Part shown: positions 48,987 through 54,554 of the stretch, in pieces | How the letters are laid out: each line of letters opens with the position of its first letter | How positions within the stretch are numbered: the stretch's first letter is position 1 | NCBI GenBank assembly: GCA_965207075.1 | Contig: CBDBLO010000002.1 | Span: forward strand, 1,600,001-1,664,000 | Length of the DNA stretch: 64,000 nt | Direction: 5' to 3' | Origin: Nitrosopumilus sp. | GTDB lineage: Archaea; Thermoproteota; Nitrososphaeria; Nitrososphaerales; Nitrosopumilaceae | Program-made: the position numbers and the translations under genes | The notes under the pieces: generated by a model | Databases searched by the model: none | What the model was told of the DNA's origin: nothing | The model's input: the letters and a program-made list of their open reading frames with translations, nothing else

Positions 48987-49913
48987 ATGGAGATAGCAGG
49001 CTCGATCAATGCAAAGGAGAGGTGCCCGAGGTGCGCCCGCGACACCATGATCACGGACGGAAGCACGGGCGAGAACTTTTGCGGCAGCTGCGGCTACGTG
49101 GTGTCCGAGAAGGCAGAGGAGTCGGGCCCCGAGTGGCGCTCGTTCTCAAACGAGGGGGAGAACAAGAGCAGGGCCGGCGTGCCCACGTCCCTTGCCATGC
49201 ACGACATGGGGCTTGCAACCATCATCAACCCCCAGAACAGGGACGCCACAGGCAAGCCGCTGGCCGCGTCCATGAAGAGCACCATCGAGAGGCTGCGCAC
49301 GTGGGACAACAGGAGCCAGGTGCACGAGCCGGTCGACCGCAACTTCAGGCAGGCGTTCAGCGAGCTTGACAGGCTAAAGGACAAGCTCGGGGTCGGGGAG
49401 GCCGTCATCGAGAAGGCGGCCCACATATACAGAAAGGCCCTCGAGAAGGGGCTCGTCAGGGGGAGGTCTATATCGGCCCTCATAGCGTCCGCGCTGTACG
49501 CGGCGTGCCGCGTCACGGAGACGCCCCGCACGCTCAAGGACATAGGCCAGGCAAGCAACATAAAGCGCAAGGACATCGCAAGGTGCTACAGGCTGCTCCT
49601 CAGGGAGCTTGACATTACGATGCCCGTAGTCGATCCCATAAAGTGCATCTCAAGGATCGCAAGCAAGGCGGAGCTCTCCGAGCGCACAAAGCGCCACGCA
49701 ACGAAGATACTAAAGCTCGCCGAGCAGCACAAGATATCGGCCGGAAAGGACCCGATGGGGCTGGCTGCCGCCGCGCTGTACGTGGCGTGCACCGAGTGCG
49801 GCGAGAACAAGACCCAGAGGGACGTGGCCGAGGCCGCCGGCGTGACGGAGGTTACCATACGCAACAGGTACAAGGGGCTCAAGACGGCGCTAGACGGGAT
49901 GGTCTCGGCGTAG
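48987..49913 (+). CDS. tfb: Transcription initiation factor IIB
   Basis: Zn ribbon CPRC..CGSC, GPEWRSF, HDMGL, two cyclin repeats, VTEVTIRNR. Confidence 0.96.
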   Translation: MEIAGSINAKERCPRCARDTMITDGSTGENFCGSCGYVVSEKAEESGPEWRSFSNEGENKSRAGVPTSLAMHDMGLATIINPQNRDATGKPLAASMKSTIERLRTWDNRSQVHEPVDRNFRQAFSELDRLKDKLGVGEAVIEKAAHIYRKALEKGLVRGRSISALIASALYAACRVTETPRTLKDIGQASNIKRKDIARCYRLLLRELDITMPVVDPIKCISRIASKAELSERTKRHATKILKLAEQHKISAGKDPMGLAAAALYVACTECGENKTQRDVAEAAGVTEVTIRNRYKGLKTALDGMVSA

Positions 49914-51044
49914 GGAACCGGCAGTTCTTGACGAAATTATTATCGCGATTACCGACAGGATCCCGCATACGGCCAGTATCACCTCCACTGAGAGCATCAT
50001 GGTGTGGGAGAACGCCTCCTCCAGCGGGACGAGGTGCGTCTGCGATATGAAGTGGGCGTGCGAGAATATGAAGTAGTTGGTGGCCCAGTGGACCAGGACC
50101 GACGCGACAAACCCGTACCTGACGTACACCCACCCCAGGATGATTCCGCCGGCGGCCGCCTGCGCAAACTTGCCCTCGCTCCACGGCTCGCCCAGCGCTA
50201 TGTGCGCAAAGCCGAACAGGAGCCCTACTGCCACGATCACCGCGAGCGCCCTCCTGTGATCGTCGATGCCGACCGCGTCGGGGCGCCACAGGCAGCGCGC
50301 CACGTACCGGAACGAGAAGCGCCCAGAATACATCAGGAAGACGGGTATCCCGACAAGCACGAGCCTAAAGCCGGTCTCCTCCACGATTGGCGCAAGCGAC
50401 ACGTAAAAGAACTCCACAAGGTCGTTTTCGGACTCGGGCGGGGCGGTCTCTATGCCTACATATCCCTGCGCGGCCGTTATTACGATTGACGCAAGCACCA
50501 GTATGGAGAACCACGTTATGACACCCAGCATGGAGTTGTCAAACCGGTGCGCCGTGCGCCGGCCCGCTATGACGTCAGATATGGCGCCCATAAACCCGCG
50601 GGCGGGGCCCATGCATGCGGTTGCAAACGCAACCAGGTACCCAAGCCACAGTATCACGAACGCGTCGCCGACTGACACCGGCGTGGGGGCAAGGTGCAGC
50701 CCCGTGCCCTCAAACAGGCTCAGGTGCGTCAGCGGCAGGTCGTAGTTGATGTCCCCCCCTATGCCGCTTGCAAAGACCACGAACGCCCCCATCGGGAAGG
50801 ATGCCAGAAACAGTCCGAACGTCACCGATATGAGGGCGGCGTGGGGGACTCCGAGCAGCTGCCGCGCAAGGGACTGCCTTGCCAGGGCGGCAGGCGCGGG
50901 GCTGCTGCCGCTGCTGCTGCCGGCAGCAGCGCCACTGTCGTCATCGGCGCGGCGGCCCGCGTCGTTGCAGTCGCCCCGGTCCTGTCCGCCCCGCGCGCCG
51001 CCGACGTCATCATCGTCAATGCTGCCGCTGCTGTCCGGGGGCAT
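49890..51044 (-). CDS. CPBP (CAAX/Abi) intramembrane metalloprotease
   Basis: PIVEETGFR, FGFAH, VHWATN motifs; multiple TM segments. Confidence 0.87.
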   Translation of the reverse strand: MPPDSSGSIDDDDVGGARGGQDRGDCNDAGRRADDDSGAAAGSSSGSSPAPAALARQSLARQLLGVPHAALISVTFGLFLASFPMGAFVVFASGIGGDINYDLPLTHLSLFEGTGLHLAPTPVSVGDAFVILWLGYLVAFATACMGPARGFMGAISDVIAGRRTAHRFDNSMLGVITWFSILVLASIVITAAQGYVGIETAPPESENDLVEFFYVSLAPIVEETGFRLVLVGIPVFLMYSGRFSFRYVARCLWRPDAVGIDDHRRALAVIVAVGLLFGFAHIALGEPWSEGKFAQAAAGGIILGWVYVRYGFVASVLVHWATNYFIFSHAHFISQTHLVPLEEAFSHTMMLSVEVILAVCGILSVIAIIISSRTAGSLRRDHPV

Positions 51045-51045
51045 C

Positions 51046-51354
51046 TCAATGCAGCTCTATGCTCTCCTCGGCAAAGCCGAGCGAGACCAGCGTGTCCTTT
51101 ATCGTGTCGCGGTGGTCGCCCTGCAGAAAGATGTATCCCTCCTTTGCCGTTCCGCCGCAGGCGTACTTGTTTTTGAGATCCTTCGCGACCGTCTCAAGGC
51201 TGTTGATCTTGGGATCGAGCCCCTCGATCATCGTCCCCTTCTTCTTAAAGCGCCGCGTCTCCAGCCTGATTATAATCTTGGTGCTGTCCTTGGCAAGCTC
51301 CCCACATGCGCATAAGTCATCGGGTAGGCCACACGTATTACAGATTACCGCCAC
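51046..51354 (-). CDS. sui1: Translation initiation factor aIF1 (SUI1)
   Basis: CNTCGLP.DLC.C, LKNKYACGGT, LQGDHR. Confidence 0.94.
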   Translation of the reverse strand: MAVICNTCGLPDDLCACGELAKDSTKIIIRLETRRFKKKGTMIEGLDPKINSLETVAKDLKNKYACGGTAKEGYIFLQGDHRDTIKDTLVSLGFAEESIELH

Positions 51355-51409
51355 GTTCGTTACCGATTGGCATCACATGCTATTAAGGTTTGAGGAGATC
51401 TTGACTCGT

Positions 51410-52746
51410 TGAAGAGTCGGGGAATCATGTCACCCCGACGCATAAGAGAGCCGACATGGAGGGAGGCGTAATGACACCTCAAACCAAGTATGACGAACAT
51501 GTCCTCATACAGGAACAAAGGGAGGAGACCGAGCGCATACTCAAGACCGCCAGCGAGAAGGGCAGGAAGCCCATACGCAAGCTGGACACGCTTGACGCAA
51601 GGTTCATCGTCCGCGAAAAGAGGAGGGGGACAAGCAACAAGACGATTGCAGGCATCCTGAAGGTCTGCATAAGGCAGGTGCAGCGCATCTGGAGCCGGTT
51701 CAGGCGCCTCGACACGGGGCGGATACTGTACCTTCCAAGGCGCCCCGGCAGGCACCGGAAGGGCGAGCCGGGGCGCAGGGAGCACTCCGCGGTTTTGGCC
51801 GCGTTCGGCCGGGTCGTAAACGGCGCGTCTGCCACATACTGGCACATCAGGAACGCGGGGGACCACGTCCCAAAGGACGCCGTGCACCGGGTGCTGCTTG
51901 AGAACGGGCTGGCGCGCGAGGAGCACGCCAAGAAGAGGCAGCGCAGGTACGTGAGGTACGAGCGGAGGCACAGCAACACGCTCTGGCACACGGACTATAC
52001 GCAGCTGGAGGACGGGAGGTGGCTGATCGTATACGTGGACGACTCGTCCCGGTACATCGTCGGACACGGCGTGTTTGACCGCGCCACGTCCGAGAACGCC
52101 ACCGCGGTCTTCAAGCAGGCCTGCCTGGCGCACGGGACGCCGTACTCGGTCCTGACCGACCACGGATCCCAGTTCTACGCCATGGAGTCCGAGGCAAAGC
52201 GCGAAAGGGGGCGCACGCACTTTGAGGAGCACCTCGGGGACGCCGGCGTAAAGCAGATCCTGGCGCGCGTGGGGCATCCCCAGACCAATGGCAAGGCGGA
52301 GCGCGTGTTCAAGGAGTACAAGTACAAGGTGGGGCACTTTGCCGACGTTGCGGGACCGCCGGGCACGGCGGCCCCGTTTGGCGCCCCCGCCGCAATGGAG
52401 AGCGACCCGACTGCCAGGTTCGTCAGGAACCACAACAACAAGCCGCACGGCAGCCTGTACGGGCAGACGCCCGCGGACGCATACCGCGAGCGGAGGCTCC
52501 CAGAGGGCCGGTCATACAAGGATGACGACGGGTAAGACACCTCAGTCAACCCCGCCGTAGGACCCTCCAGCGTATGCTGCGCACGATCATGTAAAAGCGT
52601 ACCTTTCGCGGCAGTTCGCGCACGTCGGGCACGCTGCCGGCCGCTTGGGCTGGCCCAGCGGAACCGGGAATTCAAAATTCATATGGAGTCCAGGCATGCG
52701 TGGAGCAATGTCACGACACACCGTGACATCATTTTCCGACTCTACA
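51410..52746 (+). mobile_element. IS481-family element A, 1337 bp
   Basis: TIRs TGAAGAGTCGGGGAATCATGTCAC and (reverse complement) TGTAGAGTCGGAAAATGATGTCAC, 20/24 match; 15-bp flanking repeats. Confidence 0.9.
51471..52535 (+). CDS. IS481-family DDE transposase A
   Basis: HTH, RYER..LWHTD, YVDDSSR, LTDHGSQF, HPQTNGKAER. Confidence 0.9.
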   Translation: MTPQTKYDEHVLIQEQREETERILKTASEKGRKPIRKLDTLDARFIVREKRRGTSNKTIAGILKVCIRQVQRIWSRFRRLDTGRILYLPRRPGRHRKGEPGRREHSAVLAAFGRVVNGASATYWHIRNAGDHVPKDAVHRVLLENGLAREEHAKKRQRRYVRYERRHSNTLWHTDYTQLEDGRWLIVYVDDSSRYIVGHGVFDRATSENATAVFKQACLAHGTPYSVLTDHGSQFYAMESEAKRERGRTHFEEHLGDAGVKQILARVGHPQTNGKAERVFKEYKYKVGHFADVAGPPGTAAPFGAPAAMESDPTARFVRNHNNKPHGSLYGQTPADAYRERRLPEGRSYKDDDG

Positions 52747-52761
52747 GAGATCTTGACTCGT

Positions 52762-53799
52762 TCTATTATACGGAAAGTAGGTCACCGCAGGATCAGGCGG
52801 ACTGTAGCCGATTATTTTAGGCTGTACCGATCACGAAAGCCAGTGTCAAAGGGACTGACAGAAAAGGCCGGGAAGCACCTGGTCAGGAGGCTCGGGAAGG
52901 GGGTGCCGGCTCCCGAAGTGGCAAGGGACCTTGGAATCTCCATCCGGCATGTACGAAGGCTGTGGGCAAGGTTCCAGAAGACCGGGACCATACGCGTGCA
53001 GATGGGCAGGCCGCGCTCCTGCATCACGGGGGCCCAGATACGGCTGATAACCGACGCCCACCAAAGGCGGCCGGTCGGAGTCGTACGCACCGCAAGGGAG
53101 CTGAGAAGGAATCACGATATTAGTTACGCCGCCGTGTACCGCGTGTTGAAGAAGAGCGGCGCCGTGGAGGCCTCGGCGGCAAGATCAAAGAGGCGCAAGT
53201 GGGTGCGGTACGAACGCACGTACTCCAACGCCATGTGGCATACGGACTGGCATGTCATGAAGGATCCCCGCTTTTCAGGCATGAATCTCATCACATATTT
53301 GGACGATGCGTCCCGGTGCGTTACGGGCGCGGCGCTCTTCGAGCACGCCACGTCCGAGAACGCGGTAATGCTCCTCAGGCTCGCAATCAAGAGGTTCGGC
53401 TCCCCCGCGTCCATACTGTCCGACAACGGATCGTGCTTTGTGGGGCAGAACGGCCGCAAGAAGGGAAAGGGGAAGTGGCAGCCCACCGTCTTTGAGGAGG
53501 AGCTGCTTGAGAGGGACATTGCCCTGATAAACGCCCGTCCCTACCACCCCCAGACTAACGGCAAGTTGGAGAGATTCCACCGCAGCCTGGAGGAGGAGAT
53601 ATACCACTATGGCAGCCTCAGGGAGTACGTAGACTATTACAACGAGTCAAGGCTGCACTTCTCGTTGGACATCGACAACTACGAGACGCCGCAGATGGCC
53701 TTCAGGAACAAGAGGGCGACCGAGGCGATCAGGAAGAACGACCCGAAATGGATGGAGAAGGATGCACATGAGTAGCGGACCGACTTTTCATATAATACA
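52762..53799 (+). mobile_element. IS481-family element B, 1038 bp
   Basis: TIRs TCTATTATACGGAAAGTAGGTC and (reverse complement) TGTATTATATGAAAAGTCGGTC, 18/22 match; same 15-bp flanking repeats. Confidence 0.9.
52843..53775 (+). CDS. IS481-family DDE transposase B
   Basis: HTH, RYER..MWHTD, YLDDASR, LSDNGSCF, HPQTNGKLERF, YN..R.H.SL; start moved to the GTG inside the element. Confidence 0.9.
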   Translation: MSKGLTEKAGKHLVRRLGKGVPAPEVARDLGISIRHVRRLWARFQKTGTIRVQMGRPRSCITGAQIRLITDAHQRRPVGVVRTARELRRNHDISYAAVYRVLKKSGAVEASAARSKRRKWVRYERTYSNAMWHTDWHVMKDPRFSGMNLITYLDDASRCVTGAALFEHATSENAVMLLRLAIKRFGSPASILSDNGSCFVGQNGRKKGKGKWQPTVFEEELLERDIALINARPYHPQTNGKLERFHRSLEEEIYHYGSLREYVDYYNESRLHFSLDIDNYETPQMAFRNKRATEAIRKNDPKWMEKDAHE

Positions 53800-54077
53800 G
53801 AGATCTTGACTCGTGCGGGTTTGCCTGTCCATAAAAATATCAGAAATTACGCACAAATTTTGACGCCTCGATCAGGTTCAGGCAGGGGTGCCGAATCCAC
53901 ACCGCGATTCTCTGAAAACTGTTTGTAGCCGGCCGCATGCGCGGATTAGTGAAACCCGGTGCGGCCATCGGCAAGAGGCGGCGCAGAGAGGACGGGCGCA
54001 CGGGTCCCGCGGCGAGCGGCATCGGCTCGGAAGGGTGGACGGCGCAGTTTTTTAGCGCCCGTGTCATACGGGGCGCG

Positions 54078-54554
54078 TTGGCGCACAAGGACGGCGGCGG
54101 AGAGAAAGAGAGGGAGCGCGTCAGGCGCGCCGCGGAGATGCTGCTTGCCGGGGCCACCCTGCTGGGGCACCCATGCCCCTACTGCGGGGGCGTCAGGGTG
54201 ATCAAGGATGGCGACGCGCTGTGCGTCAGCTGCGGACAAGAACCGGAGAGACGGGACGTGCCGATAACGGCCCCCCAGGACGGCGGCAGCGACGCAGAAG
54301 ATCATGCGGGCGCAGAGAGGACGGGCGCACGCGCGCAACTGCGGGGGCGGCGGCGGCAGCAGCAGCAACGGCGCAACCTGATCGACGTTCTGGAGAAAAA
54401 GCTCGAGTCGCTTGCCGGCGAGCTTGAGTCGGAGACGGACAGGAAAAGGGAGATTGCCATACTGGATTCAATCGAGGGCGTACTCTCAGCCCTAGAAAAG
54501 GCCAGGGGCGTCACAGACGGCGGCAGTGGCGGCAACGGTGCGGGAACCGCATGA
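54078..54554 (+). CDS. Zinc-ribbon protein (Sjogren autoantigen p27/UPF0148-like)
   Basis: AAEMLLAGATLL..CPYC..CVSC and C-terminal coiled coil; start uncertain. Confidence 0.8.
   Translation: MAHKDGGGEKERERVRRAAEMLLAGATLLGHPCPYCGGVRVIKDGDALCVSCGQEPERRDVPITAPQDGGSDAEDHAGAERTGARAQLRGRRRQQQQRRNLIDVLEKKLESLAGELESETDRKREIAILDSIEGVLSALEKARGVTDGGSGGNGAGTA

What the first reader, a model, noticed from the sequence alone, without database searches (positions are those of the whole stretch)
51395..53814. Two different IS481 elements stacked at one site with three identical 15-bp repeats: a CRISPR-like array of transposons
Seen: the layout is repeat - IS-A (1337 bp) - repeat - IS-B (1038 bp) - repeat, with GAGATCTTGACTCGT identical three times. 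The two elements have different TIRs and clearly diverged transposases, both with intact DDE motifs, in the same orientation. Known: IS481-family elements have TGT..ACA ends and variable TSDs, some around 15 bp, but DDE ISs rarely reuse an exact base position. Inference: two independent insertions cut the same two bonds in the same polarity, each regenerating the target. That is the logic of Cas1/casposon or Tn7-att array growth, and suggests an archaeal IS481 clade that integrates site-specifically at a safe-harbour site.
Basis: partly seen in the sequence, partly recalled or inferred. Interest (0 to 1): 0.85.

Follow-up and report, generated by a model that had tools for sequence, protein, structure and literature searches.

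The report
Two insertion sequences stacked end to end
Two different jumping genes sit side by side sharing one 15-base target duplication, most likely because elements of this archaeal family tend to land right beside the tip of one already there, not because the site is a special docking sequence.

Summary
GAGATCTTGACTCGT occurs exactly three times, bracketing IS-A (1337 bp) and IS-B (1038 bp). Both encode intact DDE transposases that are 35% identical.

The site-specific safe-harbour reading fails.
- In this genome, 6 of 7 IS-A copies and all 3 close IS-B copies carry perfect 15-16 bp duplications of unrelated sequence.
- In Nitrosopumilaceae relatives, 46 of 80 loci show unrelated 15-16 bp duplications.
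- The duplicated 15 bp carries no sequence information.
- A roughly 96%-identical strain has the site empty.
- 15-bp duplications are already known for archaeal IS481 members (PMC10045372).

What remains is a narrower effect. Where two such elements lie within 100 bp, tip to tip, the gap is 13-17 bp in 6 of 7 cases. These are two cases here, three in G425, one in G428, and one outlier of 25 bp.

My best reading is that an incoming element cuts at the tip of a resident element and 15 bp away, regenerating the same duplication. This resembles the "IR-targeting" of IS30 and IS911, but here it acts between different elements. It is a new variant of a known behaviour, of moderate interest.

The parts
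51046..51354 (-). sui1 (translation initiation factor SUI1), the left neighbour. Its start codon lies 41 bp from the first 15-mer.
   Evidence: ORF; Pfam SUI1 E 4.2e-19; conserved at 70-82% DNA identity in relatives of the same genus.
51395..51409 (+). Copy 1 of the 15-bp target site duplication.
51410..52746 (+). IS-A, an IS481-like insertion sequence of 1337 bp with imperfect terminal inverted repeats of about 24 bp (TGA... / ...ACA).
   Evidence: 7 full-length copies in the genome at 97.7-100% identity. 6 of the 7 carry perfect 15-bp duplications that fix both boundaries.
51456..52535 (+). IS-A transposase, 359 aa, DDE/rve type.
   Evidence: Pfam rve E 4.9e-15. The best NCBIfam model is the IS481 family at 161.7 bits, below the 224-bit cut-off. 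DDE residues.
52747..52761 (+). Copy 2 of the 15-bp duplication. It is the whole spacer between the right tip of IS-A and the left tip of IS-B.
52762..53799 (+). IS-B, an IS481-like insertion sequence of 1038 bp with terminal inverted repeats (TCT... / ...ACA).
   Evidence: 3 copies at 97.2-100% identity plus 2 diverged copies. The other 2 close copies have 15- and 16-bp duplications of unrelated sequence.
52789..53775 (+). IS-B transposase region matched to families. The true start codon is uncertain. The frame stays open leftwards through the left end and the 15-mer into the IS-A tail (ORF 52645-53775).
   Evidence: Pfam rve E 1.8e-13; NCBIfam IS481 174.8 bits against a 224-bit cut-off.
53800..53814 (+). 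Copy 3 of the 15-bp duplication.
53937..54554 (+). Right neighbour, a small zinc-ribbon protein (Auto_anti-p27 domain), transcribed divergently from sui1.
   Evidence: Pfam PF06677 E 3.6e-10. A homologue lies next to sui1 in relative L005.

Best explanation
IS-A and IS-B are two ordinary members of a Nitrosopumilaceae clade of IS481-like insertion sequences. Their transposases cut the target with a fixed 15-bp stagger and show no sequence preference inside those 15 bp.

One of the two elements inserted first into the short divergent intergenic region between sui1 and the p27-like gene, and so duplicated the 15-mer. The second element then inserted directly beside the tip of the first. One of its two staggered cuts fell at the junction between the resident tip and its flank, and the other fell 15 bp away. 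The 15 bp it duplicated were therefore exactly those already duplicated, which gives three identical copies.

Shown:
- the 15-bp stagger;
- the lack of a target consensus;
- the empty ancestral site;
- the recurrence of a tip-to-tip spacing of about 15 bp at unrelated sequences in three genomes.

Inferred:
- The resident terminal inverted repeat is recognised by a transposase and acts as the landmark, as in the IR-targeting of IS30 and IS911, where the spacer also equals the duplication length.
- Recognition works across elements with only partly similar ends.
- Only unlike pairs persist, because a like pair would form an active IR-IR junction or recombine away.

The order of the two insertions is not known.
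For: (1) A fixed 15-bp duplication at unrelated targets.
- 6 of 7 IS-A copies and 3 of 3 close IS-B copies have perfect 15-16 bp duplications, all of different sequence.
- IS-C (3 copies) has 16-bp duplications.
- Of 80 related loci, 40 gave a 15-bp call, 6 a 16-bp call, 2 a 14-bp call, 3 a 13-bp call and 29 no call.

(2) No information inside the duplication. It carries at most 0.10 bit per position in 46 sites, against a sampling expectation of 0.05. There is only weak, roughly symmetric A/T preference in the flanks.

(3) An empty site exists. In run X3, one 6273-bp contig of a strain about 96% identical joins 51396 to 53811. It skips 2414 bp and carries a single, diverged copy of the 15-mer region.

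(4) The tip-to-tip spacing recurs.
- In this genome the only two outward-facing end pairs closer than 200 bp both have a 15-bp spacer: the window pair, and G000:C2 799834/799850.
- In G425 there are three pairs, with spacers 17, 14 and 15. One is a second three-fold repeat, with duplications overlapping by 13 of 15 bp.
- In G428 there is one pair with spacer 13. There the flanks show that the IS entered 2 bp inside the tip of a 232-bp MITE-like element that was already present.
- In L056 there is one pair at 25 bp.
- So 6 of the 7 close pairs seen lie at 13-17 bp, and all six pair two different elements.

(5) Precedent in print.
- IS30 inserts into hot spots or next to its own inverted repeats, as IS911 does (PMC9333248, passages read).
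- The ISAba32 group sits 5 bp from XerCD sites with a 5-bp duplication (bioRxiv 10.1101/2022.12.17.520857, abstract read).
- Archaeal IS481 members ISMac4 and ISA0963-1 make 15-bp duplications (PMC10045372, passages read).
Against: - No experiment or read-level intermediate shows that a transposase binds the resident end. The targeting is inferred from spacing statistics alone.
- The second pair in this genome (799834/799850) has a 15-bp spacer, but neither element has an outer duplication. A simple abutting insertion does not explain it without a later rearrangement.
- Two IS-rich genomes showed no close pair: 0 among 36 detected termini in G426 and 0 among 24 in G427.
- A strict two-core pattern found 0 matches in 401 family genomes. 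It would also have missed the known cases.
- Orientation is not uniform: 3 pairs are head-to-tail and 2 head-to-head. IS30 IR-targeting gives only IRL-IRR junctions.
- The ends of IS-A and IS-B are only partly alike.
- The end detector was a position weight matrix built from ends of the same loci, so the counts are not from an independent detector.
- The inner junction was not among the read-derived pieces listed.
Confidence: 0.72

Rival explanations
1. Structural hot spot without recognition of the resident end. The clade prefers a certain flank shape (A/T-rich at about 4-5 and 9-12 bp outside the cuts), and the A/T-rich tip of a resident element happens to recreate that context. The position beside an IS tip then becomes a favoured target with no protein-end contact.
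For: One search shows a weak, roughly symmetric A/T preference outside the duplication, with T at -5/-4, A at +4/+5 and A/T at 9-12 bp (0.2-0.3 bit). IS tips of the clade are A/T-rich at positions 4-8.
Against: The preference amounts to a few tenths of a bit per position. That is far too little to concentrate 6 of 7 close pairs into a 5-bp range. IS-A's tips are not A/T-rich, yet they take part in both pairs of this genome.
Confidence: 0.14
2. One reading: the 15-mer is a specific attachment or safe-harbour site, recognised by an IS481 clade that integrates site-specifically, so arrays grow as at Tn7-att or CRISPR leaders.
For: Three exact copies and identical polarity of both insertions. The site lies between two divergent promoters, where insertions are likely harmless.
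Against: All other copies of IS-A, IS-B and IS-C, and 46 of 80 related loci, sit at unrelated sequences. There is no information inside the duplication. The 15-mer occurs nowhere else in the genome. In the related strain the empty site has a diverged 13-bp version matching 10 of 13 positions, so the sequence is not conserved. Other abutting pairs use other sequences.
Confidence: 0.03
3. Chance. Two random insertions in a permissive intergenic region happened to use the same positions.
For: The region is non-coding and tolerated one insertion already. IS elements cluster in such places.
Against: My own estimate uses about 15 resident elements, 2 matching positions each and a 2.2-Mb genome. It gives about 1e-5 per insertion and about 2e-4 for 15 insertions. 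Yet this genome has two 15-bp pairs and two other genomes have four more at 13-17 bp. Selection for harmless sites cannot produce base-precise spacing.
Confidence: 0.03
4. Assembly artefact. The tandem was produced by collapsing or mis-joining repeats.
For: Both elements are multi-copy repeats, and the inner junction was not among the contig pieces listed.
Against: Contigs from two runs of two studies cross both outer junctions, flank into IS-A and IS-B into flank. The related empty site joins the same two flanks. Analogous tandems occur in independently assembled genomes.
Confidence: 0.03

Closest known systems
IS481 family insertion sequences with 15-bp duplications (archaeal ISMac4 and ISA0963-1, as named in PMC10045372)
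   Same: A single DDE/rve transposase ORF, a size of about 1-1.3 kb, terminal inverted repeats ending ...ACA, and a 15-bp target duplication. The IS481 model is the best NCBIfam match over its full length.
   Different: Scores fall below the curated IS481 cut-off (162-177 bits against 224). The left tips read TGA or TCT instead of TGT. The clade found here is confined to Nitrosopumilaceae/Nitrososphaerota records among the 80 best loci, except one Thermoplasmataceae record.
IR-targeting of IS30 and targeted transposition of IS911 (IS3 family)
   Same: Insertion next to the terminal inverted repeat of a resident element creates an end-spacer-end junction whose spacer equals the element's duplication length. 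That length is given as 2 bp for IS30 in PMC9333248, and I recall 3 bp for IS911. Here it is 15 bp.
   Different: In IS30 the targeted end belongs to the same element, the junction is exclusively IRL-IRR, and it is reactive. Here all six pairs join different elements. In the window pair the transposases are 35% identical. Orientation is mixed, the products are simple insertions with complete duplications, and they appear stable.
ISAba32 subgroup of the IS1202 family abutting XerCD sites
   Same: A relative of IS481 inserts at a distance from a protein-bound landmark equal to its own duplication length, 5 bp (abstract of 10.1101/2022.12.17.520857).
   Different: The landmark there is a host recombination site, not another IS end. 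According to that abstract, the 15-17 bp subgroup of that family does not target xrs.
Arrays at Tn7-type attachment sites and casposon or CRISPR spacer integration
   Same: Repeated insertion regenerates a short direct repeat, so elements stack in one orientation.
   Different: Those systems recognise a defined sequence or leader. Here no target sequence is shared between copies, and the enzyme is a DDE transposase, not Cas1 or TnsABCD.

Membership tests
IS481 family | Single-ORF DDE transposase with an rve (integrase core) domain and no programmed frameshift | tested here: met
   Pfam rve E 4.9e-15 and 1.8e-13. There is one uninterrupted ORF per element. D, D and E are invariant in alignment A2.
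IS481 family | Transposase reaches the curated NCBIfam IS481 model (NF033577) cut-off | tested here: not met
   IS481 is the best model and is matched over its full length, at 161.7, 174.8 and 177.4 bits for IS-A, IS-B and IS-C. All three fall below the 224-bit cut-off. This points to a divergent clade. IS3 is next at 61-65 bits.
IS481 family | Terminal inverted repeats with TGT...ACA tips | tested here: inconclusive
   The right tips are ...ACA in IS-A, IS-B and IS-C. The left tips are TGA (IS-A) and TCT (IS-B, IS-C). Many relatives have TGT at both ends.
IS481 family | Target duplication within the family's range (2-15 bp, with about 15 bp in some archaeal members) | tested here: met
   15-16 bp in 9 of 10 close IS-A and IS-B copies and in 46 of 80 related loci. 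The range is as stated in PMC10045372.
Site-specific integrating elements (att-site or safe-harbour type) | All or most copies occupy the same target sequence | tested here: not met
   The duplications are all different. They carry at most 0.10 bit per position. The 15-mer is unique to this locus.
Site-specific integrating elements (att-site or safe-harbour type) | The target sequence is conserved at the empty site of relatives | tested here: not met
   The related strain in X3 has an empty site with a 13-bp version matching 10 of 13 positions. The intergenic DNA is not alignable in other species of the genus.
IR-targeting as in IS30 and IS911 | Insertion beside a resident terminal inverted repeat, with a spacer equal to the duplication length | tested here: met
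   Spacers are 15 and 15 (this genome), 17, 14 and 15 (G425) and 13 (G428). One pair lies at 25 bp (L056).
IR-targeting as in IS30 and IS911 | The targeted end belongs to the same element, and the junction is exclusively IRL-IRR | tested here: not met
   All six pairs join different elements. Three are IRR-IRL, two are IRL-IRL and one cannot be determined because it involves a MITE.
IR-targeting as in IS30 and IS911 | Transposase binding to the resident end, and one-ended strand transfer intermediates | not testable with these tools
   This needs biochemistry or transposition assays.

The most novel reading that the evidence does not exclude
In this Nitrosopumilaceae clade of IS481-like elements, the tip of any resident clade member may serve as a landmark for incoming elements, even when the transposases are only about 35% identical. 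The resident end would be held where a donor end normally sits, so that the two target cuts fall at the tip and 15 bp beyond it. This would be cross-element IR-targeting with a 15-bp ruler. Each insertion regenerates a new tip with an intact 15-bp flank, so arrays could extend themselves and steer new copies into DNA that is already disrupted. On this reading only unlike neighbours survive, because like neighbours would make an active junction.
Probability: 0.45. Interest if true: 0.55.

Novelty: new variant of a known kind. Interest (0 to 1): 0.4.

Why it matters
The headline idea, a CRISPR-like array of transposons at a safe-harbour site, does not hold. These are ordinary IS481-like elements whose 15-bp duplication is a known family trait.

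What may be worth following is narrower. There is comparative evidence that elements with an unusually long 15-bp stagger land with base-level precision beside the tips of other, only distantly related elements.

If confirmed, this would extend IR-targeting to another family, to archaea and to unlike partners. Until now it has been described for IS30 and IS911 acting on their own ends. It would also give a simple reason why IS elements pile up in tandem in the IS-rich genomes of sponge-associated and marine ammonia-oxidising archaea. Finally, it would offer a natural test of how transpososome geometry sets the spacer and duplication length.

Tried and rejected
- Empty site in other species. 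A search with the sui1 region matched 16 of 41 genomes, G000 included; the best match outside G000 was 82% identical. The intergenic DNA beyond sui1 did not align in the six loci tested. These genomes therefore gave neither an empty nor an occupied site at the DNA level.
- Exact scan of metagenome contigs for the 15-mer plus right flank: 0 hits. The strain is evidently not in that collection, so I did not spend the second scan.
- Strict pattern for two outward-facing end cores (GAACKACTTTN{24,54}AAAGTMGTTC) in 401 family genomes: 0 matches. The pattern would also miss the known pairs in L018 and L024, so this is uninformative and is not evidence against recurrence.
- Read laying. No listed piece bridges the inner junction 52746/52762. 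153 pieces were not shown and all runs are contigs, so this is neither support nor refutation. No single-element allele was seen. X1 carries an IS-B-like copy in a different context.
- Order of the two insertions. Copy identities do not decide it: IS-A here is 100% identical to another copy, and IS-B is 99.9% identical to another.
- Composite-unit idea, in which A, the 15-mer and B move together. Rejected, because the inner 15-mer would then match the outer duplication only by coincidence, and the 15-mer is found nowhere else.
- The second pair in this genome (IS-B', decayed, and IS-A at G000:C2 798726-801187). I looked for outer duplications and found none. It remains unexplained beyond its 15-bp spacer.
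- Literature. No paper in the library holds both 'IS481' and 'IR-targeting' (0). The searches gave the papers cited. The search failed on a formatting error. Supplementary files were not consulted; the IS tables of PMC13343696 and PMC10045372 may list these elements.
No earlier findings were used.
Full report
THE OBSERVATION

The window stretch 51395-53814 reads: 15-mer, IS-A (51410-52746, 1337 bp), the same 15-mer, IS-B (52762-53799, 1038 bp), the same 15-mer. The 15-mer has exactly three matches in the window, even when two mismatches are allowed. The expected number is 0.06, and none of 100 shuffles reaches three. It has the same three matches and no others in the whole 2.23-Mb genome. The window is G000:C2:1600001-1664000.

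Both elements lie on the + strand. Each carries one long ORF with a Pfam rve domain (E 4.9e-15 and 1.8e-13). The two proteins are 35% identical over 272 residues. The catalytic D, D and E are invariant in an alignment with two further paralogues. The best NCBIfam model for both is the IS481-family transposase, matched over its full length but below the curated cut-off (161.7 and 174.8 bits against 224).

The array sits in the divergent intergenic region between sui1 (51046-51354, minus strand) and a small p27-type zinc-ribbon gene (53937-54554). In at least one species of the genus these two genes are direct neighbours (L005). IS-A begins TGA and IS-B begins TCT, and both end ACA.

IS THE 15-MER A SPECIFIC SITE?

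The whole genome answers this directly. IS-A has 7 full-length copies (97.7-100% identity). IS-B has 3 close copies plus 2 diverged ones. Six of the 7 IS-A copies are flanked by a perfect 15-bp direct repeat, each of a different sequence. The other two close IS-B copies have 15- and 16-bp repeats, and a 78%-identical relative of IS-B has 16 bp, again all unrelated. A third paralogue, IS-C (1131 bp, 3 identical copies, transposase 44% identical to IS-A's), has 16-bp repeats: one perfect and two with one mismatch.

I then fetched the 80 best related loci from one-genome-per-species contigs. All but one come from Nitrosopumilaceae, Nitrososphaerota or other thaumarchaeal records; the exception is a Thermoplasmataceae record. 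An automated search looked for terminal inverted repeats flanked directly by a direct repeat. It called 15 bp in 40 loci, 16 bp in 6, 14 bp in 2, 13 bp in 3, and made no call in 29. The repeat sequences are unrelated.

A profile of 46 reconstructed empty sites carries at most 0.10 bit at any of the 15 duplicated positions, against a sampling expectation of 0.05. There is a weak, roughly symmetric A/T preference 4-5 and 9-12 bp outside the cuts (0.2-0.3 bit).

So the 15-bp stagger is a property of the clade, and the targets have no consensus. This matches what is in print. The IS481 family makes duplications of 2-15 bp, mostly 6 bp, with about 15 bp in "not a few" members, among them the archaeal ISMac4 and ISA0963-1 (PMC10045372, passages read).

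THE EMPTY SITE AND THE ASSEMBLY

Public runs were searched with 50900-54400, and four were laid on it. All four are Logan contigs.

- In X19 and X20, from two different studies, contigs run from the left flank 30 bases into IS-A (50900-51439) and from the last 30 bases of IS-B into the right flank (53770-54334).
- In X3, a sponge metagenome holding a strain with 17 differences in 481 bases of the sui1 region, one 6273-bp contig joins 51396 directly to 53811. Seven other letters lie between, so 2414 bp are skipped. This is an unoccupied site with a single, diverged copy of the 15-mer region (13 bp, 10 of 13 like the window's).

The 15-mer is therefore target DNA, duplicated twice, and it is not conserved as a sequence. 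No listed piece bridges the inner junction (153 pieces were not shown), so that junction rests on the assembly alone.

WHY THE SAME TWO BONDS TWICE?

Random re-use is very unlikely. My own estimate takes roughly 15 resident elements, two matching positions each, and a 2.2-Mb genome. That gives about 1e-5 per insertion.

I built a position weight matrix from 51 distinct ends, read from the files, and scanned for termini that face outward towards each other.

- In this genome the only two such pairs within 200 bp are the window pair and a second one at G000:C2 799834/799850. There a decayed IS-B relative and an IS-A copy face each other across exactly 15 bp.
- In the 80 related loci there were three pairs, with spacers 13, 14 and 25.
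- For four IS-rich genomes I fetched every locus with a transposase match at E <= 1e-20: 29, 19, 21 and 23 matches. G425 has three pairs (spacers 17, 14, 15). G428 has one (13). G426 and G427 have none among 36 and 24 detected termini. The L018 and L024 pairs are among these four.

In total I saw seven distinct close pairs. Six have spacers of 13-17 bp. The seventh, at 25 bp, is a 15-bp duplication lying 10 bp from the neighbour.

The details are telling.

- At G425 49174-51320, two different elements have duplications that overlap by 13 of 15 bp. This gives another three-fold repeat at an unrelated sequence.
- At G428 (L024), the flanks show that a 232-bp MITE-like element was there first. 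A 1427-bp IS then entered with its duplication reaching 2 bp into the MITE's tip.
- At two further G425 pairs, the duplication of one element includes, or stops at, the terminal base of its neighbour.

All six pairs join two different elements. Three are head-to-tail, two are head-to-head and one cannot be oriented. Selection for harmless positions could explain clustering, but it could not explain base-precise spacing.

MECHANISM

The simplest account is that an incoming element uses the tip of a resident clade member as a landmark. One target cut falls at the junction between tip and flank, within about 2 bp. The other falls one stagger (15 bp) away. Gap repair then duplicates the very 15 bp that the resident had already duplicated.

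This is the logic of the IR-targeting described for IS30. That element inserts into hot spots or next to its own inverted repeats and creates an IR-IR junction. The process is said to resemble targeted transposition of IS911 (PMC9333248, passages read). It also parallels the ISAba32 group of the IS1202 family, which sits 5 bp from XerCD sites with a 5-bp duplication (10.1101/2022.12.17.520857, abstract read). In each case the spacer equals the element's own duplication length.

Several steps are inferred and not shown:
- that a transposase, resident or incoming, binds the resident end;
- that recognition works across ends that are only partly alike;
- that like-like tandems are absent because they would form reactive junctions or recombine.

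A weaker rival is that IS tips merely mimic the preferred A/T-rich flank. The measured preference is too small to give this precision.

The second pair in this genome lacks outer duplications. It needs an additional rearrangement under any model.

COMPARISON AND NOVELTY

The elements are IS481-like. They meet the architecture, duplication and right-tip criteria. They miss the curated HMM cut-off, and their left tips are atypical. They fail the defining tests of site-specific elements. They share the defining spacing rule of IR-targeting, but not its same-element and single-orientation features.

I found no paper in the searchable library that combines IS481 with IR-targeting (0 papers). A 2026 survey of archaeal IS elements mentions very IS-rich Nitrosopumilus genomes, but in the passages I read it says nothing about end-adjacent insertion (PMC13343696).

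VERDICT

The site-specific safe-harbour interpretation is not supported. The residual phenomenon is cross-element insertion beside a resident tip with a 15-bp ruler, supported by comparative evidence from three genomes. It is a new variant of a known behaviour and of moderate interest to transposon specialists.

Noticed in passing
G000:C2:798726-801187 (outside the window; locus L011 4727-7188): A second stacked pair in the same genome. A decayed IS-B relative (82% identity, frameshifted, with an internal duplication of about 70 bp) and an intact IS-A copy lie head-to-head, exactly 15 bp apart. Neither has an outer target duplication.
   Followed up: partly
G000:C2 462556-463686, 519679-520809, 2042492-2043622 (outside the window; L012): A third paralogous element, IS-C: 1131 bp, three identical copies. 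Its transposase is 44% identical to IS-A's and 34% to IS-B's. It has 16-bp duplications.
   Followed up: partly
window 52645-53775: The IS-B transposase frame has no stop codon leftwards through its left inverted repeat and the 15-mer, into the 3' tail of IS-A. The first in-frame canonical start inside IS-B is a GTG about 80 bp in. The diverged copy at G000:C2 259485-260525 likewise has an ORF that starts outside the element. The start of translation for this element type is unclear.
   Followed up: no
window 51381-51409 and 53815-53850: The insertion point lies between a TATA-like box upstream of sui1 (conserved as ...CTATTAAG... in relatives) and an A/T-rich box upstream of the p27-like gene. 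Both promoters seem to be left intact. The related strain in X3 also lacks 149 bp at 53890-54040.
   Followed up: no
L024 5224-5455 (G428): A 232-bp non-autonomous (MITE-like) element with terminal inverted repeats of the same clade and its own 15-bp duplication.
   Followed up: partly
L018 2860-5382 (G425): A nested insertion. A 1434-bp IS with a clean 15-bp duplication sits inside another clade element of about 1.09 kb, directly beside the abutting pair, forming a small IS cluster.
   Followed up: no
46 reconstructed empty sites: The duplicated 15 bp are compositionally balanced, while the flanks are A/T-rich in a roughly symmetric pattern (T at -5/-4, A at +4/+5, A/T at 9-12 bp outside). 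This suggests that target choice follows DNA shape.
   Followed up: partly
G000:C2 solo termini, e.g. 422720, 731055, 773315, 1036632, 1959275, 2060284: Several high-scoring single IS ends and transposase fragments point to older, decayed copies of the clade in this genome.
   Followed up: no
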